Shown here: positions 1 through 40,977 of the stretch, one piece after another
Numbering within the stretch: the stretch's first letter is position 1
How the letters are laid out: every line of letters begins with the position of its first letter
Origin: a virus
Virus record (IMG/VR): IMGVR_UViG_3300044911_002321
Span: 6,388-70,387 of that record
DNA length: 64,000 nt
Direction: 5' to 3' (one strand)
Made by a program: the position numbers and the translations under genes
The notes under the pieces: generated by a model
Told to the model about the DNA's origin: nothing
The model's input: the letters and a program-made list of their open reading frames with translations, nothing else
The model's database searches: none

Positions 1-1089
1 AGCATCACTGGTACGCAGTTGGTTAAGATTAGTTGTACGTAGTTCTTCAAAGTAAGTACGATAGTAATCAAGTGGGCAATCAGGCCAGATCCGATTGATG
101 AAGTAGATAGCGTTAGTTGTCTGCTCGAATTCTTTGTAGCCATACTTGATTGACTTGCGTTGCTCGTTATCTGGATCTTGATATGCAACAGTGCTGCGAT
201 CAAGCATCTGTTGTAAGCGTGCTTTGATAGCCGGTGTTGTAATGATGTGATCAATACTATTGATCGTTAGATAAGTTGATGATGATGTGTATTCAACTTT
301 ATGTTTAGCTGACCATGCGTGAGCCAAACCAACAATGGAATCAACACTGAGTTGAATGTTGTTTCTATCTGCAATACCGCTTGTAAGTGCAGTAGGAAAC
401 TCAATTGCATCAAGGATGTTAGTGCACTTCATGCGATCAAACATTGAACGGCTGTCATTCCATGTAGGAATAGTCTCCATCAATGCTTGCTCAAACTGGT
501 TAAGCGTATTATTCATCTCACGTGTCTTTTGGTAATACGCACCAACACCCATGGCACGCCAGTTGCGATCGTCTTTACCATTGATAATATCTTGTTTGGT
601 CACTAGCATTGTACGTACAAACAATTGCGAGCCACGACCAATGGTGTGCTCAGTGCAATTATCTTTACTATCCCAGATATGCTTAGGTAATGTCTTAGCT
701 GCTGATGCAGTGTTCTTGAATGCGTATGCATAGCCATAAACATATTGATCTTCTTGTCCCTTGGGAGGTAGCCATGCTGCATACCAGCATTGTTCAAAGT
801 GATACAAGATGGCAATGGTTATAACACGTGCTTCTGGTGTAGCAACATCGACCACCTTGGTAAATCGGCGATGACGATTAGCTACAACTGCTGTATTGAT
901 CTGTTCAATTGCATCATCTTGATAGCTGCCACGCACAACATCCTCTGGGATGAGATGAGGAATCTTACCCAGTGGATACTTAGCTTTCTTGGTTGTGGAC
1001 TTAGGTGCTTGTTCCTTGGCCAAAGCTTTGAGCTTTGGATCGTAGGCAAGCAGCTCTTGTTGGAGATTGGAAGGCAGTTCGAAATGCAT
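1..1089 (-). CDS. Hypothetical protein (MHFELPSNLQQELLAYDPK...), running toward the window start
   Basis: Hand translation of the 5' two-thirds shows an open minus-strand frame from ATG at 1089 with an AC-rich leader like neighbouring genes; absent from the ORF track, presumably because it is truncated. Confidence 0.75.
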   Translation of the reverse strand, partial: MHFELPSNLQQELLAYDPKLKALAKEQAPKSTTKKAKYPLGKIPHLIPEDVVRGSYQDDAIEQINTAVVANRHRRFTKVVDVATPEARVITIAILYHFEQCWYAAWLPPKGQEDQYVYGYAYAFKNTASAAKTLPKHIWDSKDNCTEHTIGRGSQLFVRTMLVTKQDIINGKDDRNWRAMGVGAYYQKTREMNNTLNQFEQALMETIPTWNDSRSMFDRMKCTNILDAIEFPTALTSGIADRNNIQLSVDSIVGLAHAWSAKHKVEYTSSSTYLTINSIDHIITTPAIKARLQQMLDRSTVAYQDPDNEQRKSIKYGYKEFEQTTNAIYFINRIWPDCPLDYYRTYFEELRTTNLNQLRTSDA

Positions 1090-1115
1090 GATGGAGTTGG
1101 AGTTGAGTTGAGTAT

Positions 1116-1142
1116 AGGCAGTTTAACGTCATGCCCAGGACG
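1116..1142 (-). ncRNA. H-type pseudoknot leader element, copy 2 (CGUC-CU-GGGCA-U-GACG-UUAAAC-UGCCU)
   Basis: CGUC/GACG and GGGCA/UGCCU form crossing stems; same GACGUUAAAC core as 9422-9446. Confidence 0.6.
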
Positions 1143-1180
1143 ATGTGTTAAAGGATTGGGATTCCTTTAACGTATGCTTC

Positions 1181-1375
1181 TTAACGTGTCAAGAAGTTCT
1201 TCATCTTAACTGTTTCCTCACTAGCCCATGTGTCAATGTACTGGTCAAGTGTGTATGTACTTGTCGGTGTCATGACTGGCATGCGTTTAGCAAAGCCAGT
1301 TGCCAAGTACACTCGACCCTTGGGACCACGCAGTACAAAGTAGTAGCGCTTGAATTCAAGTGAGAAGCCAATCAT
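1181..1375 (-). CDS. Hypothetical protein
   Basis: 64 aa ORF with 4-bp overlap to the upstream gene. Confidence 0.65.
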   Translation of the reverse strand: MIGFSLEFKRYYFVLRGPKGRVYLATGFAKRMPVMTPTSTYTLDQYIDTWASEETVKMKNFLTR

Positions 1376-1623
1376 TCGTCGTCACTCAGATCGAGTAGTT
1401 GCCAGAGAGGATCGAGTTGATCAAGATAGCTGCAGAAGCCATCTTCGTCAAGAGGAATCGGTTCCTCTGGATCCAACTCAATAGTTGTTGTGCACAGTGC
1501 AGGAGCCCACTCTTCAGGGTCGAAGCGAGTCGCCCGATAGAGCAGGCGCATGTCGTCAACAACTGCTGTAACTGTGACATGAGTTTGTGTGAAGTAAGTA
1601 TCTTCGATTGCAAGGACTGTCAT
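1372..1623 (-). CDS. Hypothetical acidic protein
   Basis: 83 aa ORF translationally coupled to both neighbours. Confidence 0.7.
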   Translation of the reverse strand: MTVLAIEDTYFTQTHVTVTAVVDDMRLLYRATRFDPEEWAPALCTTTIELDPEEPIPLDEDGFCSYLDQLDPLWQLLDLSDDE

Positions 1624-1808
1624 CAGTCAGGCTCCACGAATGAAACGGTGGTTGAGATGTAGCAGTTGTAACGAGTCCACATCTTTGCAGTTGTGTACTC
1701 GCTAACAAAACGATCGCGATCAAAATGATTATTTTGGGCACGCTCCATTGCGCAGCGTGCAACATTGATGCGATCAAACAAGCTGAGGTTTGTGTTTGTG
1801 GTAGCCAT
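1623..1808 (-). CDS. Hypothetical protein
   Basis: 61 aa ORF directly downstream of a family C element. Confidence 0.7.
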   Translation of the reverse strand: MATTNTNLSLFDRINVARCAMERAQNNHFDRDRFVSEYTTAKMWTRYNCYISTTVSFVEPD

Positions 1809-1839
1809 GGTTGAATTGAATTGAGTTGGTGGACAAGAC

Positions 1840-1867
1840 CTGGGACTTACACCGTAAGGATGCCCAG
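1840..1867 (-). ncRNA. Family C structured leader element (CUGGG-CAU-hairpin-UGUAAGU-CCCAG)
   Basis: One of six intergenic copies with compensatory stem changes. Confidence 0.75.
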
Positions 1868-1871
1868 ATCT

Positions 1872-2069
1872 TTAGATTAACTTAATGTTTGGAATGCTCA
1901 AGCCTGTGCCAGGGATACTGACTGATCCTTTGACGCCATTGGGGCTGGCATTGACAGTCAGTTGGAATGGACCAAGCTTGATCTGTTTACTTACTGATTT
2001 GATGCCATGTTCAGTGATGTTCACACCATGAATGGTGCGATCAAAACTTAATGGAGATTTCCTGGTCAT
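1872..2069 (-). CDS. DUF4236-like small protein
   Basis: KQIKLGPFQLTVNAS..G...SVSIPGTGLS pattern. Confidence 0.55.
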   Translation of the reverse strand: MTRKSPLSFDRTIHGVNITEHGIKSVSKQIKLGPFQLTVNASPNGVKGSVSIPGTGLSIPNIKLI

Positions 2070-2376
2070 CTTTGAGTTTGCGGATGAGCTGTTGTAGATC
2101 TTCTTCAGTGCCAGTAATGGACACTGTCATTGAAACTTGCCTTGACTTAGGTCTCCGTCTGTCACGTAGATCACGGACAGATGAGCGTCGTTGAAACTTA
2201 GTGCCACATACTGAATTAGATTCGAATAGTTTGCAGCATTCTTCCAGTTCTGTATCTGCTCCATATTGAACAGCTTCAACAAGAAGATCGCCAAAACTTT
2301 TGCCGTACCTTTGATACTGATGTATCCAAGCATCAAGCATATACTTTGGTGGAACCACAGGATGTTGTTGAGTCAT
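2041..2376 (-). CDS. Hypothetical protein (MTQQHPVVPP...)
   Basis: ORF track 2041-2454; start moved to ATG 2376 to avoid overlap with the upstream gene. Confidence 0.65.
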   Translation of the reverse strand: MTQQHPVVPPKYMLDAWIHQYQRYGKSFGDLLVEAVQYGADTELEECCKLFESNSVCGTKFQRRSSVRDLRDRRRPKSRQVSMTVSITGTEEDLQQLIRKLKDDQEISIKF

Positions 2377-2410
2377 TTTTGAAAAATGGTAATTGTTTAT
2401 TAAATGAGTG

Positions 2411-2620
2411 TTACTTGAGATCCTCCGGCATGAGTGCCATGGCATCATCGTCATCCATGTTTGTCATTACAAATTTCTCTCCATTGGGAGCAATGAAGCC
2501 CCCAATGAAACCAATGCCATGTCTCTCGGCTGATTCCTTCATCTTCGCTACAAGCTGCATAGCCTGCAGTCGTTGCATGTCAAGTGAGTCGGGAATGCGA
2601 GGAGTGTTGGAGGATGTCAT
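2411..2620 (-). CDS. Hypothetical protein
   Basis: 69 aa ORF with CAACTCAATTCAA leader and TAGACT -10-like element upstream. Confidence 0.7.
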   Translation of the reverse strand: MTSSNTPRIPDSLDMQRLQAMQLVAKMKESAERHGIGFIGGFIAPNGEKFVMTNMDDDDAMALMPEDLK

Positions 2621-2723
2621 TTGAATTGAGTTGATTAACTAGGTCAGTCTACCAGGGCAGTCAAGGTAAAGGCCATGCATCAGGGATACTGATACACGGC
2701 CAGTACTTATGTACTACCTGATG

Positions 2724-3011
2724 TTATGAATGCATGGCAAGGTGTTCTTTCCATGCAGCAGTGTGCATTTCATCCATAGTCATGGGTGGTTCACCTGGTT
2801 CACTAGGTGTTGGATCGTAGTCAAGCTCATCGCTTAACATACCGATCACCTCATCGAGTACGTCACGGGTATGTGGATCGAGATGCTCATCCATCTGATG
2901 TCGTTTAGATTCACGATTCCGAATTGCTTCAAGTGCATCTAATGCAAGACGCAATTGGTGGTACTCGTTCTTGGTCCAGGTGAGTTCAGGATACTTCTTT
3001 GTTTGTTCCAT
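2724..3011 (-). CDS. Hypothetical protein (MEQTKKYPEL...)
   Basis: Start placed at the ATG just downstream of the family C element. Confidence 0.7.
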   Translation of the reverse strand: MEQTKKYPELTWTKNEYHQLRLALDALEAIRNRESKRHQMDEHLDPHTRDVLDEVIGMLSDELDYDPTPSEPGEPPMTMDEMHTAAWKEHLAMHS

Positions 3012-3040
3012 GGTTGAGTTGAAGGTGAGGTTGGTGTAAC

Positions 3041-3079
3041 CCTGGGACTTACACCACACTAAATGTGTGGATGCCCAGG
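3041..3079 (-). ncRNA. Family C structured leader element
   Basis: CCUGGG-CAU-CCACAC(AUUUA)GUGUGG-UGUAAGU-CCCAGG. Confidence 0.75.
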
Positions 3080-3090
3080 CTTAAACTTAG

Positions 3091-3339
3091 ATGAGATCTG
3101 AGTTTGTACTTATGTTAATTGCTGGCAGGTTTGCAGTTGGTGGTAGTCCATTCCTTGAGGGATGGAAGCAAGAGTACATGAAAGCACAGGGTTCCATGCC
3201 ACCACCTGAGAAGGTGATGGATTTCTTGACATCTGTGATACGGAATGAAAGTATTCCAATGCAAAACAAACAGGCAGAGATAAGGATGCTAGAGCAGATG
3301 CAGAGATTTAGACCTGAGGTTAGGTCAGTGGCTGGGTGA
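3091..3339 (+). CDS. Possible counter-oriented hypothetical protein
   Basis: 82 aa ORF with protein-like composition, ending immediately before the palindromic element. Confidence 0.35.
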   Translation: MRSEFVLMLIAGRFAVGGSPFLEGWKQEYMKAQGSMPPPEKVMDFLTSVIRNESIPMQNKQAEIRMLEQMQRFRPEVRSVAG

Positions 3340-3344
3340 TGATG

Positions 3345-3550
3345 GGTAAAAGGATGAATACCGTGTTATAGAAGGGTAAATACCGTCTTATTATCTTAGA
3401 TATAGGGTTTCATACGTTGTTAAAAAAGTGTATTAAACCTGGTGTCTAACGGATGAATAGCAGCTTATCCATACAACTTTCTAGAAAGGTATGAAACCCT
3501 ATAGAGGGTTAGATAAGACTGTATTCACTGTTGAATAAGATGGTATTGAC
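3345..3550. repeat. Palindromic iteron element, copy 1 (candidate origin or protein-binding site)
   Basis: Perfect inverted repeat TATAGGGTTTCATAC at 3401-3415 and 3489-3503, flanked by two pairs of inward-facing AATACCGTCTTAT-like boxes; near copy at 53366-53570. Confidence 0.85.
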
Positions 3551-3751
3551 GGTTTCCCCCGTCTTCCCCATGTACATGTGTACTATTCCTTGGTACAAGT
3601 GGAGATATCTTTGGTACGTGTGTACTAGATATAGATATGAATGAAGGATATCCCTGGTACATACCCACTAGTTAGAGGTACATACCAGGGATGGGTAGGT
3701 ATTAATACTTAATATTGTCTGGCAACAAAGAATTGCCAATACATGCCAATA

Positions 3752-4117
3752 CTATAAACTAGACGGATAACCAGGGAGCATTTGATTAAGACTTGGTGCA
3801 TATGTTTTGAAATAATATCTTTCTGCTTCTGCAAGGATTGAAGAAGCTACTCCTATATCAAACGTTTCTAAAACTTCATACTCAAATAAAAACATAGTCA
3901 TTTGAAATACTTCTTTCAAAGAAAAGGTTTGGTTTAGGATGTTTTGCTTGCAAAGTGATAGTCTCCATTGCGGTGAATTACAAAAGCGATGATAATAAGT
4001 AAATCGTAAGCGTAGATTAGAAGTAGCTCCAATGTATTCTTCCTCGTCTTTATAAATGATTTTATAAATACCAGGAAGTTTAGGCGCTGTTTTAAATGAC
4101 AAAGCTGTGTAGTACAT
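3752..4117 (-). CDS. GIY-YIG endonuclease (homing-type)
   Basis: GIY(x9)YIG..SNLRLR and AERYY motifs; AT-rich relative to flanks. Confidence 0.8.
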   Translation of the reverse strand: MYYTALSFKTAPKLPGIYKIIYKDEEEYIGATSNLRLRFTYYHRFCNSPQWRLSLCKQNILNQTFSLKEVFQMTMFLFEYEVLETFDIGVASSILAEAERYYFKTYAPSLNQMLPGYPSSL

Positions 4118-4120
4118 CGC

Positions 4121-4363
4121 TTATTGTTCTTTGGGTGCAAGCATGATCCATGCTGTGTAGTTAGCACTGCTTCTGTCTACATGTATCAATCCGTATTCTT
4201 CCAGTCGCACCAAGGCCTGGAGATATTGCTCAAGCCTTGAGCTTTGCGATGGAAGCTTAGGTACGAAGCATGGTGTGTTCCCATACTTCTTCTTGTGATT
4301 CAAGTAATACTGATATAAATTACGCTGGTTGATACTGAGTGCAGGTGTTGCAGTTGCTTGCAT
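4121..4363 (-). CDS. Hypothetical protein, possibly winged-helix
   Basis: LVRLEEYGLIHV resembles a wHTH wing. Confidence 0.6.
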   Translation of the reverse strand: MQATATPALSINQRNLYQYYLNHKKKYGNTPCFVPKLPSQSSRLEQYLQALVRLEEYGLIHVDRSSANYTAWIMLAPKEQ

Positions 4364-4366
4364 TGA

Positions 4367-4735
4367 TCAGCAGTAGTACGGACGTGATTCAGGGTAAGCC
4401 TTAGCTAGTTCGTTGGAGAAGCTGATGTCAATGTTGGATCGAGTTGTTGTATCTCCAAGAGACGGTTGGCCTTCGATCTCGTACTCTTCGAAGTACTTGA
4501 CGTAGATCTGGACCGCTTGCCTCTTGGAGAAGATGCAGTGGCTAACAAGAGGTTCTCCTTGGGTGTAGTACCAACCTCCTTCTTCGGGTCCGCCGTACCT
4601 GAGATAGGTTTCGTGGACCGTGACGACCGTTGGGTCTTTGTGCTCGAAGTACTTGTGCACTTTGTATGCATTGATTGCGAAGCGTGCTTTGTAGGACTTG
4701 GGGTAGAACTTCTTGAGTTCTGAGATGTAAGACAT
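4367..4735 (-). CDS. Hypothetical phage protein (YGGPEEGGWYY motif)
   Basis: 122 aa ORF in the operon. Confidence 0.7.
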   Translation of the reverse strand: MSYISELKKFYPKSYKARFAINAYKVHKYFEHKDPTVVTVHETYLRYGGPEEGGWYYTQGEPLVSHCIFSKRQAVQIYVKYFEEYEIEGQPSLGDTTTRSNIDISFSNELAKAYPESRPYYC

Positions 4736-4822
4736 GATGCAAACTCCGTGATGATGATTGAAATGATTGCGATCAGGATGACGATGATGTCACCATCATC
4801 CCATGCTTGACGCAGTGTGTAC

Positions 4823-4960
4823 TTAGGCTTGGTCATCGTAGGTCTCCAGTTCAGGTGGGTTGAGTTCGTATTCTTCACGCATGGCTTGCTCTTGTTGATA
4901 GGCAATGTCTGCCATGGCATCAAGCAAGTCAGCGTTGTAGTTGGGATCGAGTTCAGGCAT
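4823..4960 (-). CDS. Small acidic hypothetical protein (MPELDPNY...)
   Basis: ATG downstream of a family C element. Confidence 0.6.
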   Translation of the reverse strand: MPELDPNYNADLLDAMADIAYQQEQAMREEYELNPPELETYDDQA

Positions 4961-4988
4961 TGCTTGAATTGAGTAGGTGGACAGTAAA

Positions 4989-5031
4989 CCCTGGGACTTA
5001 CACACCGTACTTACGTCGGTGCTGCCCAGGG
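4989..5031 (-). ncRNA. Family C structured leader element
   Basis: CCCUGGG-CAG-CACC...GGUG-UGUAAGU-CCCAGGG. Confidence 0.75.
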
Positions 5032-5032
5032 A

Positions 5033-5257
5033 TCAGAAGGTATTGGCCACCTTTGTTGCTAAGGAATCAACAAAGGTTGGACCATCTTCTTGGAATGCGA
5101 GCATGTATTGTTCACGCTCGTCTTCATCCATCAATGCACCCAGGGTGTGATGCGCATGATAGAAGGCTAGTGCGTTGACGATGGCATACTTCTCATCAAC
5201 GTTGATGATGAGGTGATACCGCTTGTTGTCTTCCGTTTGATCCATGAGTGCGCCCAT
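5033..5257 (-). CDS. Hypothetical protein
   Basis: 74 aa ORF between two family C elements. Confidence 0.7.
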   Translation of the reverse strand: MGALMDQTEDNKRYHLIINVDEKYAIVNALAFYHAHHTLGALMDEDEREQYMLAFQEDGPTFVDSLATKVANTF

Positions 5258-5285
5258 GTTGAATTGAGGTAGGTGAATAGTTGAG

Positions 5286-5339
5286 CATGGGACTTACACC
5301 ACTGTTATTGAGAAGAGTTCTCAATTGTGGATGCCCATG
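5286..5339 (-). ncRNA. Family C structured leader element
   Basis: CAUGGG-CAU-CCAC...GUGG-UGUAAGU-CCCAUG with an extended inner hairpin. Confidence 0.75.
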
Positions 5340-5345
5340 TGTTGG

Positions 5346-5702
5346 TTACTTCATATAGAGGTATGAGCCCGCCCAATCAGCATTTTGGATGCAGGTGGCA
5401 AACGATACCTCGTCCATGAGGTTGTAACGTACGTGCTTAGCTGGTGACGCCCAGCTTGCTGGTTTGTAGACAGAACCAGATTGACGGTCAATAAATGCAT
5501 GGACTGATGCACCAGTCTTGCCGTCAATGGTTGAACGCTTGACGTCACGTTGAATAAGTTTGTAGTACTTGGTACCTTTAACAATGTCAAAGGTAATGCC
5601 GCCATCTCCATAGTGCTTAGCGTAACTAGCAAGGAGCTTGTCGATGAGACAATTGATGCGAGCTTCAAGTACTTGGATGTGCTCGGCTAGTTGTGTTGTC
5701 AT
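5346..5702 (-). CDS. Conserved phage protein (SVHAFID..G.VYKPASW..PAK..RYNL motif)
   Basis: Motif recalled as common in cyanophage hypothetical proteins. Confidence 0.75.
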   Translation of the reverse strand: MTTQLAEHIQVLEARINCLIDKLLASYAKHYGDGGITFDIVKGTKYYKLIQRDVKRSTIDGKTGASVHAFIDRQSGSVYKPASWASPAKHVRYNLMDEVSFATCIQNADWAGSYLYMK

Positions 5703-5730
5703 GGTTTGAGTTGAGTTGATTAAGGTTTGT

Positions 5731-5769
5731 ACTAGGACTTACACCACACATTGTGTGTGGATGCCTAGT
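5731..5769 (-). ncRNA. Family C structured leader element
   Basis: ACUAGG/CCUAGU outer stem is a compensatory change from CUGGG/CCCAG. Confidence 0.75.
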
Positions 5770-5773
5770 GTTG

Positions 5774-6148
5774 TTAACGAGTGAGACGATTAGTGAAGTT
5801 ATATCTATAGCCGCTGTCGTATGCAGGTTCTTTATACGTTACGTTGTTAGCAATCTTGCAGATCGCTGACTCACCAATGTGATAGTCCTTAGCAATAGAT
5901 AGTGCAGTCTCACCTTGTGCTTTGCGCATACGAATATCTTCTACTTGGTTATCACTAAGGAAATTACTGCGACGACCACGTTTGATTGGGTCTTTCTCGA
6001 TCGGAGGACGACGCCTCACTCGACGTAATACAATTGTCATGTACCCAGGATTACAGTTGACAATGCTGCCGATTGAATCGTAGTCGTACCCCTGGCACCT
6101 GAGTTGCCAGATCCGATCTTCCTTGACGATAGATACTCGATTGCGCAT
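5774..6148 (-). CDS. Putative DNA-binding protein with two HTH-like segments
   Basis: LRCQGYDYDSIGSIVNC and QVEDIRMRKAQGETALSIAKDYHIGESAICKI. Confidence 0.6.
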   Translation of the reverse strand: MRNRVSIVKEDRIWQLRCQGYDYDSIGSIVNCNPGYMTIVLRRVRRRPPIEKDPIKRGRRSNFLSDNQVEDIRMRKAQGETALSIAKDYHIGESAICKIANNVTYKEPAYDSGYRYNFTNRLTR

Positions 6149-6173
6149 GGGGATTGATGAGTTGGTTGGGTGA

Positions 6174-6206
6174 CTGGGACTTATATCCTCATGGAGGAAG
6201 GCCCAG
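6174..6206 (-). ncRNA. Family C structured leader element (variant)
   Basis: CUGGG-CCU-UCCUC(CAU)GAGGA-UAUAAGU-CCCAG. Confidence 0.7.
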
Positions 6207-6217
6207 GTTATGGCTAG

Positions 6218-6469
6218 CTAGTAGCCCATGACGTACAGCTTGGAGGCGTTGATGCCCTGTGGGCCAAGCGACGTGTACTTACTGGCTAGTGCTGCGATGG
6301 TGCTAATGCTAGCCGCAAGTATGAGTGCAGCCACCACAGCTTTCAATAGATGGTTGGACTTATGAGTCTCACCATAAGAATCCATCTGGATGAAACCGTT
6401 ATGCATGCGATAGATCGTCTTCATGTCAAACGGTCTCCAGGATATAGCGACAGCAGATGTAGTCTTCAT
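6218..6469 (-). CDS. Small membrane protein (start uncertain)
   Basis: Hydrophobic segment LLKAVVAALILAASISTIAALA. Confidence 0.5.
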   Translation of the reverse strand: MKTTSAVAISWRPFDMKTIYRMHNGFIQMDSYGETHKSNHLLKAVVAALILAASISTIAALASKYTSLGPQGINASKLYVMGY

Positions 6470-6701
6470 CTGGTAGCTGAACAGGGTTACCTTGTTCGTG
6501 CGAACCGTAGGTATCTACCCATCGCTCGTCAATTAGTACATCGAGACACTCAAGGAATGCGTCAATGTATTCACGAGCCTGAGACGTTGTTGCTACCCAA
6601 TGGAGATAGACGACGTTGTCATCGAACTCCAGGTGATAGTGATTGATCTTGAACACTGCAAGTGCAGAGTCAAGCTCTTCTTTGCCAACTAGTAGTGCCA
6701 T
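6426..6701 (-). CDS. Hypothetical protein
   Basis: 91 aa ORF downstream of a family B element. Confidence 0.65.
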   Translation of the reverse strand: MALLVGKEELDSALAVFKINHYHLEFDDNVVYLHWVATTSQAREYIDAFLECLDVLIDERWVDTYGSHEQGNPVQLPDEDYICCRYILETV

Positions 6702-6723
6702 GTTAAATGCAATGGAATGGAAT

Positions 6724-6772
6724 CCAGGATGTTGAGTCCTGGTGGGAAGGGCCGAAGCCCCTCCAATCAGGA
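6724..6772 (-). ncRNA. Family B long-hairpin element with alternative CAGG pairing
   Basis: UCCUG...CCAGGA-CUCAACA-UCCUGG with a GGGC-UUCG-GCCC apex. Confidence 0.6.
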
Positions 6773-6773
6773 G

Positions 6774-7013
6774 TCAATCCTCATGCCTGCGTTCCCAACG
6801 AAGCAGATCCCTGTTGAGATCTACTTTGCGTTGGAGTACCACGCAGAATGGGACTAGGTCTTGGAACTGGGCTAACCCATCTTGCCATTGGAAGAAGAGA
6901 TCGAGAGCAGCTTGACGCTGTTCTTCAATCTCTGCATCAATGACAGGGGAGTCTCTGCGAGCCAATAAACGTGCGTCTTGGGTCAGCAGTTGTTCAACAG
7001 CTTTAGGAGTCAT
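6774..7013 (-). CDS. Hypothetical protein
   Basis: 79 aa ORF between family B elements. Confidence 0.7.
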   Translation of the reverse strand: MTPKAVEQLLTQDARLLARRDSPVIDAEIEEQRQAALDLFFQWQDGLAQFQDLVPFCVVLQRKVDLNRDLLRWERRHED

Positions 7014-7041
7014 GGTCTCCAGTTGGTGTCGTGTGGTGTGT

Positions 7042-7107
7042 TGCAGGTGTGACCTGCAGAAAACTCACCGGCAATACATGTGTACTACCGGGAGAGTTAT
7101 GTGCAGA
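7042..7107 (-). ncRNA. Family B long-hairpin element
   Basis: CUGCA..AACUC..CCGGUAGUAC/GUAUUGCCGG..GAGUU..UGCAGG-UCACA-CCUGCA. Confidence 0.6.
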
Positions 7108-7305
7108 TTACAGGTACTTACTGTGGATGCAGTAGTACGTGTCCCCTAGGAATCCTTGTGTACGTACAAGGTTGTGGTTTGGTCTTGCGTTGCAGTGTTC
7201 TTCGTAGTGTTGGTTGAGTAGCTTCTGTACTCCAGTAGATAGGAGTAAGCCACTACCAATGCCAATGACAAGAGCAACACAGGAGTCTTTGAATGAGTTG
7301 GACAT
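7108..7305 (-). CDS. Small membrane-anchored protein
   Basis: N-terminal hydrophobic helix and a Cys pair. Confidence 0.65.
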   Translation of the reverse strand: MSNSFKDSCVALVIGIGSGLLLSTGVQKLLNQHYEEHCNARPNHNLVRTQGFLGDTYYCIHSKYL

Positions 7306-7333
7306 AAGTTGTTAGTTGGATTTAGATGGTGTG

Positions 7334-7717
7334 TCAGAAGTCCAGGTAGTCTTCTTCCTCAGGTTGAGACGATGCATCAACAGCCTTAGGCCTTGGTGCT
7401 GCACCGATAGTGGCACGTACTCCTGTGAGTTTGATCTCAGGGTACTTGAGTGCCACAAGTTGACCATCCTTCTGGTAGTGCGTCTTGATAGTGCTGATGC
7501 GTACACTCCACTGCGTGAGGATGAGTTGATGGCCTGCGACTAAGCTGCCCTTGTTAAATGCCGCAAGCAATCCATTGCTATTCGTAAACCGCAAGCGGCA
7601 CGAACCGCCGAATGGATCGTTGACTGCAATACTTGCAGCCAGGAAAACACTATTGTCTTCCCTGGACTTGAGCACCTTGAGGTCGGTGACATAGCGAATG
7701 ATGGTTGAGCTGAACAT
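7334..7717 (-). CDS. Putative single-stranded DNA-binding protein
   Basis: Beta-rich 127 aa protein ending in the acidic-aromatic tail EEEDYLDF. Confidence 0.4.
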   Translation of the reverse strand: MFSSTIIRYVTDLKVLKSREDNSVFLAASIAVNDPFGGSCRLRFTNSNGLLAAFNKGSLVAGHQLILTQWSVRISTIKTHYQKDGQLVALKYPEIKLTGVRATIGAAPRPKAVDASSQPEEEDYLDF

Positions 7718-7739
7718 GAGAATACTGTGGTGTTGACAA

Positions 7740-7810
7740 GCAGGATGTTGAGTCCTGCAGTAAACCCACCGACGTAGTACTGATGTACTGGTGGGAGGGC
7801 TTAGAGCAGG
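7740..7810 (-). ncRNA. Family B long-hairpin element
   Basis: CCUGC...CCACC..GGUGG...GCAGGA-CUCAACA-UCCUGC. Confidence 0.6.
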
Positions 7811-7812
7811 AA

Positions 7813-8046
7813 TCAGAATGCTACTGCATACATGATGTCTTGAAGCATGGTCATTGAGTAGTTGTAATACTCTCTCATCTCGTAGTAAAGCTCCTTGGTA
7901 CCTGTCGGCATCCCTGACATGAATGTCAGGGAATCAAGGTCTTCCCACTCGCCATCTTTGATCTTCTGGAAGTGAAGCATAGAGCTGTCACCTCCATTCC
8001 AGATGACGCGATGGAGATTATCAAACTCAGGCTTGTAGATCAACAT
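7813..8046 (-). CDS. Hypothetical protein (MLIYKPEF...)
   Basis: ATG about 17 nt downstream of a family A element. Confidence 0.7.
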   Translation of the reverse strand: MLIYKPEFDNLHRVIWNGGDSSMLHFQKIKDGEWEDLDSLTFMSGMPTGTKELYYEMREYYNYSMTMLQDIMYAVAF

Positions 8047-8062
8047 GGTGTTGTGTAGTAGA

Positions 8063-8138
8063 TGCCACGGGATTGTGGCAATAGTTGTGTGGGGCATTCG
8101 ATGCCCCGGCTCACGGCTGGTCAGAAGACCATCACAAC
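8063..8138 (-). ncRNA. Family A tRNA-like element plus UGCCAC hairpin
   Basis: GUUGUG/CACAAC closing stem, UGGUC/GACCA arm, GGGGC-AUCGAAU-GCCCC T-arm. Confidence 0.7.
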
Positions 8139-8315
8139 GTCGTCGGCCTCCATCATCTCCTGGAAGGACATGATCTGCACGTCATGCGTGCCTTGGATGC
8201 CGTCGTTTAACTCGGGTGAGTTAAGTTGGAAGTCCATTTGTGCAGCTTCGATAAGTGCTTCTTCCCACTGGAAGGAGAAGCCGTGCTGCACGCCGTCAAT
8301 CACGATGTAGTACAT
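8121..8315 (-). CDS. Small acidic hypothetical protein (MYYIVIDG...)
   Basis: ATG downstream of a family A element. Confidence 0.65.
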   Translation of the reverse strand: MYYIVIDGVQHGFSFQWEEALIEAAQMDFQLNSPELNDGIQGTHDVQIMSFQEMMEADDVVMVF

Positions 8316-8333
8316 GGTGTTGAGTTGAGTAGA

Positions 8334-8409
8334 TGCCACGGGATTGTGGCAATAACTGAGCAGGGGATTTGATCCCCCAGCATCACGCTCTACTTACGTA
8401 GGCTCAGCT
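8334..8409 (-). ncRNA. Family A tRNA-like element plus UGCCAC hairpin
   Basis: AGCUGAGC/GCUCAGUU stem, CUAC/GUAG and AGC/GCU arms, GGGGG-AUCAAAU-CCCCU T-arm. Confidence 0.7.
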
Positions 8410-8416
8410 AATAACT

Positions 8417-8599
8417 TCAGCCTCGACGGATCTGAAGGTTCCTGTCTGCTTTACAAGCAGCAGAAATCTGCTGAGGCGTTGCTGCCTCGCAGAAGTAATT
8501 CGGATCACCTCCGAAGAAATGATCCGTAACCAAAGTAACTTTGCCGTCGTTAGTACGACGGACAAAGAACAGGTTGTTCAGTTGCATGGATCTCTCCAT
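8417..8599 (-). CDS. Hypothetical protein
   Basis: ATG downstream of a family A element. Confidence 0.6.
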   Translation of the reverse strand: MERSMQLNNLFFVRRTNDGKVTLVTDHFFGGDPNYFCEAATPQQISAACKADRNLQIRRG

Positions 8600-8607
8600 G
8601 TGTGTGG

Positions 8608-8677
8608 TGCCCATCTCCACAGGGGGCAATAACTGGACCAGGGTTTGCACCTGGTCACCCGCTTAGACGGATCAGTT
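8608..8677 (-). ncRNA. Family A tRNA-like element plus UGCCC hairpin
   Basis: AACUG/CAGUU stem, CCG/CGG arm, GACCAGG-UGCAAAC-CCUGGUC T-arm. Confidence 0.7.
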
Positions 8678-8854
8678 GGTTGGATAGTTGTTAGCTGCGC
8701 ACCACGCAAGGTGGATGTCATGTGCCTCTACTGGCCACTCATGGTTGATGCATTGCTTTGCGGTCGCCTTATCCAACTGATGGATGGTGACCTGAGTACC
8801 AATGCCCATGATTGTGGCTGCGGCAATGACAATGGATGCGATGTGTTCGGTCAT
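8672..8854 (-). CDS. Small membrane-anchored protein (MTEHIASIVIAA...)
   Basis: N-terminal hydrophobic helix and C..H.W...H..WC motif. Confidence 0.65.
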   Translation of the reverse strand: MTEHIASIVIAAATIMGIGTQVTIHQLDKATAKQCINHEWPVEAHDIHLAWCAANNYPTN

Positions 8855-8871
8855 GGTTGGTGTGAAGTAAA

Positions 8872-8935
8872 TGCCACTGGATTGTGGCAATGCTGATGGG
8901 AGGACTTGCACCTCCCTGTCCGCTTACGGATCAGC
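8872..8935 (-). ncRNA. Family A tRNA-like element plus UGCCAC hairpin
   Basis: GCUGAU/AUCAGC stem, CCG-UAAG-CGG arm, GGGAGG-UGCAAGU-CCUCCC T-arm. Confidence 0.75.
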
Positions 8936-9116
8936 GCCCGCTATAGGTAACGCGGGAGTTGTTGCGTTGGTTGTAACGGATGACGTCGCCTGTGATGCGG
9001 TCGTTGTAACGGATGACGTCGCCAGTAATACGACGGTCGTTTGATTCGTGCCACTCTTGGGAAGCTGCCTGTGCGGCAGCAGAGAATGCACGTCCGAGGG
9101 ATGTACGGAAACCCAT
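8931..9116 (-). CDS. Small protein with an 11-aa tandem repeat (RITGDVIRYN core)
   Basis: Duplication with a 33-bp period at 8970-8990 and 9003-9023. Confidence 0.6.
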   Translation of the reverse strand: MGFRTSLGRAFSAAAQAASQEWHESNDRRITGDVIRYNDRITGDVIRYNQRNNSRVTYSGR

Positions 9117-9132
9117 GGTGTTAGGTAGTAGA

Positions 9133-9202
9133 TGCCACTGGATTGTGGCAATGACCAGAGCCAGGCATTGCACCTGGCTTGGGAGCTATGACTCACCTGG
9201 TC
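9133..9202 (-). ncRNA. Family A tRNA-like element plus UGCCAC hairpin
   Basis: GACCAG/CUGGUC stem, GAG/CUC arm, GCCAGG-UGCAAUG-CCUGGC T-arm. Confidence 0.7.
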
Positions 9203-9378
9203 TGTAGTTGACGCACGAGCTTGCGCCCTGCGTCTAAGCTGAGGAGTGTGGAGCGATGCCACTCTCCTGGGCATTGCGCCTTGAGGATCATCTTCGTGAC
9301 TCTCACGAGATTCTCCTCCTTGTTCACCTGGAACTTATAGACGGCTTCGTCTGTGGTCAGGGTGAAGTAGATGATCAT
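9193..9378 (-). CDS. First early-region gene, hypothetical (MIIYFTLT...)
   Basis: GAGGA Shine-Dalgarno upstream of ATG 9378. Confidence 0.65.
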   Translation of the reverse strand: MIIYFTLTTDEAVYKFQVNKEENLVRVTKMILKAQCPGEWHRSTLLSLDAGRKLVRQLQTR

Positions 9379-9421
9379 GATTGATCCTCTTGATCTGCGA
9401 CTGACGTGCGCAGAAGTAACG

Positions 9422-9446
9422 GCTGCGTTTAACGTCCAGCTTGACG
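9422..9446 (-). ncRNA. H-type pseudoknot leader element, copy 1 (CGUC-AA-GCUG-GACG-UUAAAC-G-CAGC)
   Basis: Crossing stems CGUC/GACG and GCUG/CAGC. Confidence 0.6.
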
Positions 9447-9619
9447 AATGACCCTTGGATCTATTGCTCACTCTTCTGTCTTGCTTGTGTTGAAACAGTG
9501 ACAATTACCTCGAGCTTCTCGATGAACTGTTCTGTATCTCCCGCAGTGACGCATAGCCGAAACCCGTTGCGCGCGAAGGGATCTCAGGGATTCGTACGCT
9601 GTCTGAAAGTGTTGCAGCC

Positions 9620-9640
9620 TGTGGAAAAACCTGTGGAAAA
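9620..9640 (-). promoter_or_regulatory. Two tandem cyanobacterial-type DnaA boxes (TTTTCCACA)
   Basis: TGTGGAAAA at 9620-9628 and 9632-9640 in the non-coding strand-switch region. Confidence 0.45.
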
Positions 9641-9850
9641 CTCGTGCATGCCCCCGCTCCGCTCCAATTACTTCTCTACCCTCCCACCGTTCTTTTTTTT
9701 CTATGCACATTCGCATTCCCACAGGTGTTGCAAGAACCGTCAGAAAAATATTTTCCCTATTTTGGGTATATAGGGGCCATTTTCACGAAAAATCGTACAC
9801 TATCAACAAAAAGTGTAGACGCTGCAAGGAGTTTGCCCAAGTTTTTAGAC

Positions 9851-9876
9851 AAAAAAGCCGGGGAAGCTACCCCGGC
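9851..9876 (-). terminator. Rho-independent terminator
   Basis: GCCGGGG-TAGCTT-CCCCGGC followed by T6 on the minus strand. Confidence 0.8.
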
Positions 9877-9927
9877 GTTAATTAAATTTACACATTTTCT
9901 AAATAATTAAAAAATTAAAATTCTAAT

Positions 9928-10149
9928 TTAAAATTCTGGACCGCTATTTTGACGTTTAAAGTTACCTGCCGCGACAAACGCACTTTTATATTTGTCTACA
10001 TCTGGTTTCTGACGTGCTAATTCCCGCTGCGCACCAGACGAAAACGTTTTAACAGTAATTGGATCAGCACCTGCATCCTCTAATTCTTTTGTTTTGTCCG
10101 CAATTGCCCTTAATGCAAGTGCACGTTGCGCCCTATCCGCAGGATCCAT
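9928..10149 (-). CDS. Hypothetical protein
   Basis: 73 aa ORF with TAGACT -10-like element upstream and a terminator downstream. Confidence 0.7.
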   Translation of the reverse strand: MDPADRAQRALALRAIADKTKELEDAGADPITVKTFSSGAQRELARQKPDVDKYKSAFVAAGNFKRQNSGPEF

Positions 10150-10256
10150 AGATTTCTTGGTACTTTCGCTGTATATAGTCTAACGTACGTTGTCATTTCT
10201 TGAATTTTGCACCTTAAAATACAGATATCATAAAAATATCAAGCGATAGAACGCAC

Positions 10257-32468: not shown

Positions 32469-32471
32469 TTC

Positions 32472-32553
32472 TTGGCATTGCTCAGCATGTAAGCCCAACC
32501 TACTGGACACAGATCTTTGATCTACGGGGGCCAGTGTTGTTGCTTTTAAACCA
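32472..32553 (+). ncRNA. Candidate structured leader RNA
   Basis: Nested stems AGCA/UGCU, CAAC/GUUG, ACUGG/CCAGU, AGAUC/GAUCU. Confidence 0.4.
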
Positions 32554-32670
32554 ATGATTCTCTGTCCTAATTTTGTCAAGCGTTTAGCCACGAAGATCAG
32601 TCTTGTTGCCGCTGTACAGACTGTTTTTATTCCTGGACTCAAAGCAGATTCAAATTGGGTAGGAGAATAA
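32554..32670 (+). CDS. 38-aa ORF resembling a signal peptide plus short C-terminal peptide
   Basis: MILCPNFVKRLATKISLVAAVQTVFIPGLKA-DSNWVGE (hand translation). Confidence 0.5.
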   Translation: MILCPNFVKRLATKISLVAAVQTVFIPGLKADSNWVGE

Positions 32671-32683
32671 TTTAGGAGGTAAT

Positions 32684-40663: not shown

Positions 40664-40977
40664 CTTTCGTCCAATTGAATAAGACGATCTAGGTACCACT
40701 GTGCTTTCTTCAGTGATTCTGTCTCGCCTTTGTGGCGCTCACGCCAAATATACTTTATGTTATTTCCCTTGCAGTAACCACGGAATTCTTCGTTGGTTAA
40801 AGCCGCCTCAATGGCTTCGATGCATTCGATGCCCCCATCAGTGTAATGCGAGGGATGATTTACGACATCCTCTTTGATTGTGGGAGTTGTTTCAAGCGGT
40901 TTAATGGTAACCCAGGGTACTGGACAAACGCCATCTACACACCCATTGGTTTCGTCAACAGGGGAAAACATGTCCAT
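40651..40977 (-). CDS. DUF3310 / T7 gp1.7-like protein
   Basis: DVVNHPSHY...IECIEAI...GNNIKYIWR...LKKAQWYL. Confidence 0.85.
   Translation of the reverse strand: MDMFSPVDETNGCVDGVCPVPWVTIKPLETTPTIKEDVVNHPSHYTDGGIECIEAIEAALTNEEFRGYCKGNNIKYIWRERHKGETESLKKAQWYLDRLIQLDESQKG

What the first reader, a model, noticed from the sequence alone, without database searches (positions are those of the whole stretch)
1840..6206. Six-copy covarying hairpin with a fixed CAU/UGUAAGU internal loop upstream of early genes (family C)
Seen: copies at 1840-1867, 3041-3079, 4989-5031, 5286-5339, 5731-5769 and 6174-6206. The outer stem covaries (CUGGG/CCCAG, CUAGG/CCUAG, CAUGGG/CCCAUG). The inner hairpin varies from a short tetraloop to about 40 nt. 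The asymmetric loop is nearly invariant (CAU/CAG/CCU opposite UGUAAGU or UAUAAGU). Each copy sits about 25-30 nt before an ATG. Conserved loop sequence with free stems points to selection on RNA structure. UGUAAGU resembles a T-loop. Inference: protein-binding, cleavage or self-cleaving site; I do not recognise it as a named motif.
Basis: partly seen in the sequence, partly recalled or inferred. Interest (0 to 1): 0.7.

Follow-up and report, generated by a model that had tools for sequence, protein, structure and literature searches.

The report
Conserved junction hairpin between cyanophage genes
A small, strongly conserved folded RNA element sits between the early genes of this lake cyanophage and recurs in at least four unrelated groups of lake phages; it is in no RNA catalogue and most likely marks where long phage messages are cut, capped or bound by a cell factor.

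Summary
Six copies lie at the stated coordinates, on the minus strand, which is the sense strand of the early genes. Each reads 5'-CUGGG-CAU-[variable hairpin]-UGUAAGU-CCCAG-3' and is followed by a G-poor, CA-rich leader of 25-31 nt and an ATG.

The window is a relative of Synechococcus phage S-EIV1 (large terminase 81.6% identical). Rfam 15 has no match.

The exact core occurs in at least 118 IMG/VR contigs (142 instances, 73 different inner hairpins, scan truncated). These fall into four protein-unrelated lineages: S-EIV1-like (multi-copy, early genes), S-CBWM1-like (before the major head gene), S-CBS-like (after the terminase module) and an unnamed AT-rich lineage (after the portal gene). 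In relatives it also sits 3 nt before a tRNA-Leu gene and inside the 5'UTR of the first early gene.

Stems covary while the two loop strands and the lower helix are nearly invariant. The motif was not found in sampled cyanobacterial genomes, and no shared phage protein was found.

Best reading (about 0.45): a sequence-specifically recognised RNA punctuation signal at cistron boundaries, probably read by a host factor, analogous to T7 RNase III sites but too short to be one. No cleavage, binding or transcript end is shown. Self-cleavage is unlikely. It is a new RNA family of a known general kind.

The parts
1840..1867 (-). Copy C1: CUGGG-CAU-CC(UUAC)GG-UGUAAGU-CCCAG. The helix extends to 9 bp with its flanks. 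The stop codon of ORF 1872-2069 lies 4 nt upstream.
   Evidence: (E 2.6e-10)
3041..3079 (-). Copy C2: CCUGGG-CAU-(6-bp stem, 5-nt loop)-UGUAAGU-CCCAGG.
   Evidence: E 2.7e-9; z -3.5
4989..5031 (-). Copy C3: CCCUGGG-CAG-(hairpin)-UGUAAGU-CCCAGGG. It starts directly after the stop codon of ORF 5033-5257.
   Evidence: E 4e-7; z -4.4
5286..5339 (-). Copy C4: CAUGGG-CAU-(32-nt inner part with a nested AUUGAGAA/UCUCAAU hairpin)-UGUAAGU-CCCAUG.
   Evidence: E 1.7e-5; z -3.0
5731..5769 (-). Copy C5: CUAGG-CAU-(7-bp stem)-UGUAAGU-CCUAG, with a compensatory G-C to A-U change in the lower helix.
   Evidence: (E 1.4e-7)
6174..6206 (-). Copy C6: CUGGG-CCU-(5-bp stem)-UAUAAGU-CCCAG. This is the most divergent loop pair.
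   Evidence: (E 1.7e-6)
1809..1839 (-). Example of the G-poor, CA-rich leader without a Shine-Dalgarno sequence, lying between the hairpin and the ATG at 1808. Equivalent leaders are 3012-3040, 4961-4988, 5258-5285, 5703-5730 and 6149-6173.
   Evidence: 16 of 18 early starts lack an SD-like word; G fraction 0.09
32471..32499 (+). Degenerate seventh copy in the late region: CUUGG-CAU-UGC(UCA)GCA-UGUAAGC-CCAAC. It lies on the strand of the late genes. It is syntenic with a weak copy in S-EIV1.
   Evidence: E 4.1, not significant alone; S-EIV1 65512-65540, E 0.015; z -0.6

Best explanation
Family C is a strand-specific RNA element, a two-helix junction. A nearly invariant lower helix (CUGGG/CCCAG, often extended by 1-4 free pairs) and a nearly invariant 3-nt/7-nt internal loop (CAU opposite UGUAAGU) carry an apical hairpin of any sequence and size.

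It is placed at cistron boundaries of long phage transcripts. It usually starts 3-5 nt after the upstream stop codon. In S-EIV1-like phages it ends 24-32 nt before the next start codon.

I propose that it works as an mRNA punctuation signal. The conserved helix and loop would be the recognition module for one trans-acting factor, which cuts beside or inside it or binds it. Each cistron, or a tRNA, would then gain a defined, hairpin-protected end and its own stability.

The same 20-nt core is kept in four phage lineages that share no detectable protein. Three of them have closest cultured relatives that infect Synechococcus. The factor is therefore more likely a picocyanobacterial host protein, such as an endoribonuclease or RNA-binding protein, than a phage one.

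Shown: the copies, fold, covariation, sequence constraint, placement and distribution. Inferred: that it acts as RNA, that a trans factor reads it, that the factor is host-encoded, and that the outcome is processing or stabilisation.
For: (1) Fold with a fixed core. On 103 distinct sequences 96.9% of cells pair, and the covariation score is 0.298 against 0.089 for shuffles (0 of 500 reach it). The score falls to 0.068 or less when the 3' partners are slid by 1-3 columns. Of 142 strict instances, 137 have a self-complementary inner part, and there are 73 distinct inner sequences. Compensatory lower-stem variants exist. Loop columns are 94-100% invariant.

(2) Strand and place. In 118 of 118 loci all copies lie on one strand. 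In the window the early copies are on the minus strand and the late copy on the plus strand, each matching its genes. In S-CBS-like contigs 19 of 19 copies start 3-5 nt after a stop codon. In S-EIV1-like contexts 63 of 143 do so, and 117 of 143 lie within 60 nt of one. Of 188 contexts, 122 lie 24-32 nt before an ATG-led ORF.

(3) It is transcribed as a leader. In six relatives a CUUGG variant lies in the 5'UTR of the first early gene. It is downstream of a terminator/operator/promoter-like region and 21-24 nt before SD+GTG.

(4) It is independent of translation starts. It sits 3 nt before tRNA-Leu(UAA) in 3 contigs, 47-53 nt before the major head gene, and after portal or terminase genes.

(5) It crosses lineages. 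Of the 118 loci, 66 are S-EIV1-like, 26 S-CBWM1-like, 19 S-CBS-like and 7 other. The nearest named phages all infect Synechococcus. No protein is shared by all of G000 to G005 at blastp E 1e-4. A neighbouring hairpin family (GCCAC...GUGGC) stays within the S-EIV1-like lineage.

(6) No recognisable phage RNase, sigma factor, RNA polymerase, integrase or Y1 transposase.

(7) The early region shows no excess of sigma-70-like promoters (11 against 17.2 expected). One strong terminator and a promoter-like site lie at its head, which suggests long polycistronic transcripts that need punctuation.
Against: No transcript end, cleavage product or bound protein was seen. The only RNA-labelled runs are assembled contigs and say nothing about ends.

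G-U pairs are not commoner than A-C mismatches in the stems: 22 against 20 in folds of the two strands, and 4 against 3 single mismatches, with small n. A DNA hairpin is therefore not excluded.

The motif was not found in host-type genomes. Only 1 of 8 strict hits in 596 Gb of prokaryote genomes is a true hairpin, and it lies on a 2.5-kb phage-like contig. None of 150 further Cyanobacteriota genomes has a hit at E 0.01 or better, though filters were strict and only 45 candidates per genome were scored. A host factor would thus be reading a site the host itself does not seem to use.

The contigs compared for shared proteins are fragments (CheckV 13-64%), and blastp is blind to remote homology, so a shared small phage protein is not excluded.

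The cultured relatives S-CBWM1, S-CBS3 and S-TIM5 lack the motif, and the S-CBS1 hit is spurious.

Other, unrelated hairpins occupy the same position before other early genes. Part of the role may therefore be generic.
Confidence: 0.45

Rival explanations
1. It is a binding site for a regulator that changes transcription or translation rather than RNA ends. One form would be a cis-acting RNA that modifies the transcribing host RNA polymerase, in the manner of put or nut antitermination. Another would be an operator for a translational regulator of the downstream cistron.
For: It is an invariant loop and helix on a free scaffold. One copy is promoter-proximal in the 5'UTR of the first early gene in six relatives. 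Copies are reiterated along a roughly 16-kb one-strand gene array. The spacing of 24-32 nt to the start codon is tight in 122 of 188 contexts. Host RNA polymerase or the ribosome would be a factor common to unrelated phages of one host group.
Against: The same core sits 3 nt before a tRNA gene, and 47-150 nt before the next ORF in other lineages. A fixed relation to the start codon is therefore not general. No boxA-like partner or downstream terminator was identified, and no terminator excess is seen in the region (10 against 7.6 expected).
Confidence: 0.2
2. It is a passive structural module, such as a 5' or 3' protective hairpin or an insulator that keeps the unstructured SD-less leader free. 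No dedicated reader exists. The fixed sequence would reflect common descent and horizontal spread by recombination between co-infecting phages, as with PeSL cassettes.
For: Other hairpin families occupy the same slot before other early genes. The leaders are G-poor and unstructured. Presence and absence among close relatives imply gain and loss.
Against: The core stays identical while 73 or more different apical parts and unrelated flanks have evolved around it, in genomes of GC 0.37 to 0.64. The unpaired loop bases are the most conserved positions, which a purely thermodynamic role does not explain.
Confidence: 0.12
3. It is a strand-specific DNA hairpin, formed in single-stranded or supercoiled DNA. 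It would be read by a replication, nicking or recombination enzyme and would mark cassette boundaries, in the manner of integron attC sites or REP elements.
For: It is a near-perfect palindrome with no G-U over A-C bias. The apical part has variable length, with apical tetraloops present in both orientations, for example GUAA and UUAC. It starts 3-5 nt after stop codons of small one-strand genes. It is patchily distributed across unrelated phages. Whole-gene indels occur in this region in related contigs.
Against: No tyrosine recombinase or Y1 transposase was found in the 70-kb record. No R-box-type GTT/AAC is seen. UUCG apical loops occur 13 times against 0 for their complement CGAA, which points to RNA. 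One variant lies inside a 5'UTR. Homology breakpoints among relatives fall at many gene junctions, not preferentially at these hairpins, although that test is confounded by locus ends.
Confidence: 0.1
4. It is a hairpin-form promoter or transcription start signal, so that transcripts begin just after the element.
For: A tRNA 5' end lies 3 nt after it. The downstream leaders of 24-32 nt have the length of short 5'UTRs.
Against: No phage RNA polymerase was detected, though the control for that family rang nowhere, so this is weak. There is no sigma-70-like hexamer pattern. The variable 6-56-nt insert between the conserved halves does not fit a double-stranded promoter. A copy also lies downstream of a promoter-like region inside a 5'UTR.
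Confidence: 0.05
5. It is a self-cleaving ribozyme.
For: It has a conserved internal loop flanked by free helices.
Against: Natural forms of 26-28 nt have only 10 unpaired conserved bases. No Rfam ribozyme matches. No conserved partner sequence is seen in the flanks across lineages.
Confidence: 0.03

Closest known systems
RNase III processing sites of the phage T7 early transcript (R0.3, R0.5, R1, R1.1, R1.3), and the similar sites of Bacillus phage SP82.
   Same: Reiterated hairpins with an internal loop lie between cistrons of a long early transcript, after the stop codon and shortly before the next ribosome-binding region. The copies are similar to one another.
   Different: The commonest forms here have 5-9 bp plus 1-2 bp, too short for an RNase III substrate of about two helical turns. 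The lower helix and both loop strands are sequence-invariant. The same core is shared by four unrelated phage lineages and also occurs in late operons and before a tRNA. No cleavage is shown.
PeSL (promoter-early stem-loop) cassettes of T4-type phages. PMC2839356, abstract and outline read.
   Same: Small repeated regulatory cassettes lie between small, non-essential early genes, in regions where relatives differ by whole genes.
   Different: A PeSL is a strong sigma-70-like promoter plus a terminator stem-loop. Here there are no promoter-like hexamers, no U tract after the stem, and a conserved asymmetric internal loop.
Lambda nut (boxA/boxB) and HK022 put sites (recalled knowledge)
   Same: These are cis-acting phage RNA hairpins with conserved unpaired bases. 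They are promoter-proximal and act through host transcription machinery, so they are phage-only sequences that still need host factors.
   Different: No boxA partner is present. There are up to 6-7 copies per genome. The architecture differs, with a junction rather than a pentaloop. No terminator context was identified.
REP/BIME elements and integron attC sites (recalled knowledge)
   Same: They are strand-specific imperfect palindromes just after stop codons, with conserved unpaired bases and a variable terminal structure.
   Different: No RAYT/Y1 transposase or integrase is present. The consensus boxes are absent. The motif was not found in the cellular genomes searched.
Earlier notes of this scan on other phages: e1-5948598, e1-6035775, e1-5889440
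   Same: They describe covarying intergenic hairpins with an invariant internal loop between small early genes, which other agents read as T7-like punctuation.
   Different: The loop sequences and the genomes differ. Those notes are unchecked and are not independent evidence.

Membership tests
Any Rfam 15 family | Score at or above the family's gathering threshold | tested here: not met
   There were 0 matches in the whole window at gathering thresholds. At E up to 10 in 1-10000 there were seven chance-level hits. One (RF03142, E 3.7, 15.8 bits against a gathering score of 37.8) overlaps only the 3' end of C4.
RNase III processing site (T7 type) | About two helical turns (roughly 20 bp) of coaxial double-stranded RNA | tested here: not met
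   C1 and the commonest relatives have a 5-9 bp lower helix plus a 1-2 bp upper helix. Longer copies (C2-C5) would reach 11-18 bp.
RNase III processing site (T7 type) | Cleavage by RNase III at the internal loop | not testable with these tools
   No raw RNA reads were available. The phage record encodes no RNase III domain.
Intrinsic terminator / PeSL cassette | GC-rich hairpin followed by a U tract, plus a sigma-70-like promoter for PeSL | tested here: not met
   None of the six copies is among the 10 terminator-like sites. One of the 11 promoter-like matches (5777-5750) overlaps C5, but its TTAACA hexamer lies just upstream and its second hexamer falls in C5's variable apical part; no promoter-like match lies at C1-C4 or C6. 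The downstream flanks are CA-rich.
Kink-turn | 3-nt bulge followed by tandem sheared G-A pairs | tested here: not met
   Neither loop strand (CAU, UGUAAGU) offers the GA/AG dinucleotides in either orientation, by inspection. The consensus is recalled.
   UGUAA has U at position 1 and A at position 5, and both are invariant in 103 of 103 distinct sequences. That is compatible, but a 3D fold cannot be tested here.
Integron attC / REP element | Cognate integrase or RAYT, and consensus R boxes or a GTAG head | tested here: not met
   PF00589 and PF01797 are absent from the 70-kb record. No such boxes are seen in the copies.
N4-type hairpin promoter | A virion or phage single-subunit RNA polymerase that reads a DNA hairpin | tested here: inconclusive
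   PF00940 was not found, but the control rang in no genome. The largest ORF (1155 aa) has no Pfam match.
Self-cleaving ribozyme classes | Match to a known catalytic core | tested here: not met
   No Rfam ribozyme hit. The minimal natural size is 26-28 nt.

The most novel reading that the evidence does not exclude
The element is a portable RNA 'tag' that unrelated lake phages exchange horizontally because it plugs directly into one picocyanobacterial host machine. It could be a minimal tRNA-like punctuation signal for RNase P/Z-type processing, or a high-affinity recruitment or decoy site for RNase E or another host RNA-binding protein. Neither has a counterpart in the host's own genome. That would make it a new class of host-hijacking phage RNA, not one more lineage-specific processing hairpin.
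Probability: 0.3. Interest if true: 0.8.

Novelty: new variant of a known kind. Interest (0 to 1): 0.62.

Why it matters
Phage early regions are full of small genes whose expression logic is unknown, and cyanophage RNA biology is known for only a few marine models. In those, host RNase E is already implicated (PMC3113571 and PMC9692554, search listing and abstract starts only).

This is a 26-60-nt element with a 20-nt invariant core. It is present in at least 118 viral contigs of four unrelated lineages and absent from Rfam. It also occurs in a cultured phage-host pair, S-EIV1 and Synechococcus PCCC-A2c, so the question of what reads it can be tested directly.

If a host factor reads it, it would reveal a control point of picocyanobacterial RNA metabolism that several phage groups target. 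It would also give a sequence marker for host assignment of uncultured lake phages. If a phage factor reads it, it would define a new RNA-protein pair that moves between phages.

Tried and rejected
- **RNA evidence.** The run search found 24 runs, and the three RNA-labelled ones hold 5-6% of the words. All are assembled contigs. Laying them gave no starts or ends, and two are probably DNA. Contig breaks at the copies are repeat-induced assembly breaks. Nothing can be concluded from this.
- **Stop-codon read-through signal.** In S-EIV1-like contexts the next ATG is in frame 0, 1 or 2 with the upstream stop in 39, 25 and 40 of 104 cases. That shows no in-frame excess. Rejected.
- **Pseudoknot between GUAAG of the long loop and a downstream UUUAC.** It is present after only some copies (3 of 6 in the window, by eye) and absent in other lineages. 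Rejected.
- **Two extra pairs (CA with UG) that RNAfold adds across the loop.** The loop variants CCU, CUU and UAUAAGU do not compensate. Not supported.
- **G-U versus A-C asymmetry, to tell RNA from DNA.** No asymmetry was seen, and n is too small.
- **Homology breakpoints at the hairpins.** HSP ends pile up at many gene junctions. The test is confounded by locus ends. Inconclusive.
- **A shared trans-acting phage protein.** None was found, but the contigs are incomplete.
- **blastn of C1 against 50,697 named phages.** Only two chance 17-nt matches were found. The split core is below blastn's reach.
- **S-CBS1 weak hit (E 0.018).** It lacks the long loop and is not a member.
- **Mimic of a ribosomal-protein site, of an initiator-tRNA anticodon stem, or a tetraloop-receptor-like A-platform.** These were considered from memory only. 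The loop variants argue against the anticodon idea, and the rest could not be tested.
- **S-EIV1 genome paper.** It is not held, so I could not check whether it mentions these repeats. Supplements are closed.
- **Literature.** The 12-mers of the core occur only in three unrelated vertebrate papers. One five-term search for cyanophage intergenic stem-loops gave one unrelated paper.
- **Relatives search for a virus record.** I used loci and handles instead.

Full report
**What is there**

Genes in window 1-10150 run on the minus strand, so the element must be read as the reverse complement of the window. A lower helix CUGGG/CCCAG is followed by a 3-nt strand (CAU, CAG or CCU) and then an apical hairpin of 8 to 32 nt. 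A 7-nt strand (UGUAAGU or UAUAAGU) follows, and then the closing strand of the lower helix. In C5 the lower helix is CUAGG/CCUAG and in C4 it is AUGGG/CCCAU.

A G-poor, CA-rich leader of 25-31 nt without a Shine-Dalgarno word follows, and then an ATG. Upstream, the stop codon of the preceding ORF lies 1 to 11 nt away. For C2 the upstream ORF is doubtful.

The 9-mer shared by the copies occurs 7 times forward and 0 times reverse in the 70.4-kb record. The seventh match, at 15937, has no hairpin. A covariance model (R1) finds exactly these six copies in the window at E from 2.6e-10 to 1.7e-5. It also finds one weak hit at 32469-32498 on the plus strand (E 4.1). That hit is syntenic with an equally weak copy in S-EIV1.

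**Whose genome**

The window is 64 kb of a 70.4-kb IMG/VR virus record. Its large terminase is 81.6% identical and its primase 52% identical to those of Synechococcus phage S-EIV1, a 79-kb phage from a high-arctic lake. Megablast finds no close named phage.

Eighty window ORFs gave 26 Pfam families. These include NblA, two endonuclease VII domains, HNH and GIY-YIG. None is an RNase, RNA-binding protein, sigma factor, RNA polymerase or integrase. Direct searches for RNase III, tyrosine recombinase, Y1 transposase and T7-type RNA polymerase were negative, although the last control was uninformative.

**It is a family, and a wide one**

These hold 142 instances with 73 different inner sequences. 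Of the instances, 137 close with two base pairs, as do 68 of the 73 distinct inner sequences.

The same pattern found 8 places in 596 Gb of prokaryote genomes. Seven have a non-pairing inner part and so are chance matches. The eighth lies on a 2.5-kb contig with an S-EIV1-type leader.

R1 found 199 matches at E 0.01 or better in 100 of the loci. On the 150 best of these (103 distinct), 96.9% of cells pair. The covariation score is 0.298 against 0.089 for shuffles (0 of 500 reach it) and drops to 0.068 or less when partners are slid. The flanking pair and the two closing pairs of the upper helix covary freely. The loop columns and four of the five lower pairs hardly vary. That alignment is enriched for the exact pattern by construction.

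An arm-unbiased scan therefore asked only for the long loop, a C after the 5' arm and a closed inner hairpin. Of 49 contexts with a non-consensus arm, 29 are fully paired. These include CUAGG/CCUAG (10), CUUGG/CCAAG (9) and AUGGG/CCCAU (6). Twenty are not fully paired, among them seven ATTGG/CCCAG that may be register errors.

Loop variants are few. The short strand is mostly CAU, with CAG, CGU, CCU and CUU as minor forms. The long strand is mostly UGUAAGU, with UAUAAGU and UGUAAGC as minor forms.

At one orthologous site, the one homologous to C1, the apical part ranges from a tetraloop to a 36-nt structured insert. The apex is therefore free and the base is the functional unit.

**Four lineages, several contexts**

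I classified the 118 loci by tblastn against proteins of reference contigs.
- 66 are S-EIV1-like, with 160 instances and up to 6 per locus.
- 26 resemble contigs whose major head protein is 67% identical to that of Synechococcus phage S-CBWM1.
- 19 resemble contigs whose terminase is about 51% identical to those of the Synechococcus siphoviruses S-CBS1 and S-CBS3.
- 7 are AT-rich and have no close named relative.

In the second group a single copy lies 47-53 nt before the major head gene. In the third group it starts 3-5 nt after the stop of a phrog_4652 gene that follows the terminase, in 19 of 19 cases. It is followed there by an array of GGCNN pentamers. In the fourth group it follows the portal gene.

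Within S-EIV1-like contigs it also lies exactly 3 nt before a tRNA-Leu(UAA) gene in three contigs. As a CUUGG variant it lies inside the 5'UTR of the first early gene in six contigs. There it is downstream of a terminator/operator/promoter-like stretch and 21-24 nt before SD+GTG.

In no locus do copies lie on both strands (0 of 118).

Among cultured phages only S-EIV1 carries it, with two good copies and one weak copy. S-CBWM1, S-CBS3 and S-TIM5 have none, and the S-CBS1 hit is spurious.

A neighbouring hairpin family of the window (GCCAC-AAUCCN-GUGGC) is confined to S-EIV1-like contigs. It gave 49 stretches, and 36 of the 40 new loci are S-EIV1-like with none in other lineages. Cross-lineage spread is therefore special to family C.

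**What reads it**

The five sequenced reference contigs of the other lineages share no protein with all of the others and the window at blastp E 1e-4. They are fragments, however.

The motif was not found at E 0.01 or better in 150 further genomes drawn from the phylum of one MAG that I took as a centre, labelled Melainabacteria in its record title. Filters were strict, so this means 'not found in those searched'.

A single conserved reader remains the simplest account of an invariant 20-nt core in genomes of GC 0.37-0.64. Three lineages point to Synechococcus hosts, so I favour a host factor. This is inference.

**How it most likely works**

The early region shows no excess of sigma-70-like promoters (11 against 17.2 expected). 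One strong terminator and a promoter-like site lie at its head near 9780-9880. This suggests long polycistronic transcripts.

The element starts a few nucleotides after a stop codon. It precedes an unstructured leader, a tRNA or a highly expressed head gene. It has a sequence-specific base and a free apex. All of this fits a punctuation signal that defines and protects RNA ends, as RNase III sites do in T7 (recalled knowledge). The commonest forms are too short for RNase III, and the phage has no RNase III gene, so a different reader is implied.

The rivals are listed separately with their evidence: a regulator or antitermination site, a passive stabiliser spread by recombination, a DNA hairpin at cassette boundaries, a hairpin promoter and a ribozyme.

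Against an RNA-only view, wobble pairs are not enriched over A-C mismatches. In favour of it, UUCG apical loops occur 13 times and their complement never, and one variant lies in a 5'UTR.

**What could not be done**

No raw RNA reads were available, and assembled contigs cannot show ends. The S-EIV1 paper is not held. Three-dimensional motif ideas (T-loop, A-platform) cannot be tested here. The literature searches were made, and they found no description of this sequence.

**Verdict**

This is a real, strongly constrained and uncatalogued structured element. It belongs to the known general kind of phage intercistronic hairpins. It is unusual in its invariant core, its minimal size and its presence in four unrelated lake-phage lineages. 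Its function is not shown.

Noticed in passing
window 8334-8351, 8872-8889, 9133-9150 (minus strand): A second hairpin family, GCCAC-AAUCCN-GUGGC, lies 13-20 nt before three early ATGs. It gave 49 IMG/VR stretches, all classifiable ones S-EIV1-like.
   Followed up: partly
window 6724-6742 and 7740-7758 (minus strand): A third hairpin family, CCAGGA-CUCAACA-UCCUGG, lies before the early genes that start at 6701 and 7717.
   Followed up: no
window 8898-8916 (minus strand): A simple hairpin GGGAGG-UGCAAGU-CCUCCC has a 7-nt loop that resembles the long loop of family C. A similar CCAGG-UGCAAUG-CCUGG lies near 9160-9180. These may be ancestral or degenerate forms.
   Followed up: no
window 1-9800, minus-strand gene starts: Early-gene leaders are G-poor (G fraction 0.09) and CA-rich, with ACUCAAYUCAAC-like words. 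They lack a Shine-Dalgarno word in 16 of 18 cases, whereas 6 of 17 late genes have one. This suggests a distinct initiation mode for early messages.
   Followed up: partly
window 9422-9447 (minus strand); L012, L022, L038, L048, L076, L086: The conserved 5'UTR box UCGUC(A/G)AGCUGGACGUUAAACG lies before the first early gene. In relatives it is followed by a CUUGG-type family C hairpin and preceded by a GATACGAATTCGTATC palindrome (operator-like) and a terminator.
   Followed up: partly
window 32500-32683 (+); L127 20541-20727: About 190 nt of non-coding sequence between two late genes is conserved with S-EIV1, directly after the degenerate late copy. It could be a late regulatory region or a small RNA.
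   Followed up: no
window 3340-4120: An AT-rich island with GTAC-rich repeats carries ORF 3752-4117. A related contig skips 3717-4119, so it looks like an insertion. A GIY-YIG hit exists among the window ORFs but was not mapped to this ORF.
   Followed up: no
L017 639-717, L068 3706-3781, L026 114-199: S-EIV1-like relatives carry a tRNA-Leu(UAA) gene 3 nt after a family C hairpin. The window and S-EIV1 have no tRNA.
   Followed up: partly
L016, L024, L030, L034 (after the hairpin): S-CBS-like contigs have 60-120 nt arrays of GGCNN pentamers. Each array ends in a strong hairpin that sequesters a GGAGGG word before the next ORF.
   Followed up: no
L126 40727-40786; inner parts in L105, L011, L064, L076: A second conserved module, stem-[A(A/G)UCG / AAAGA internal loop]-stem with covarying stems, is nested in the apical part of some family C copies. 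The AUUGAGA...UCUCAAU hairpin nested in C4 also occurs outside the element in S-EIV1, near 40800-40830.
   Followed up: no
window 21586-23112 versus KJ410740.1 54080-56620: The S-EIV1 terminase gene is about 1 kb longer and aligns in two pieces, so S-EIV1 has an insertion (intein or intron-like) that the window lacks.
   Followed up: no
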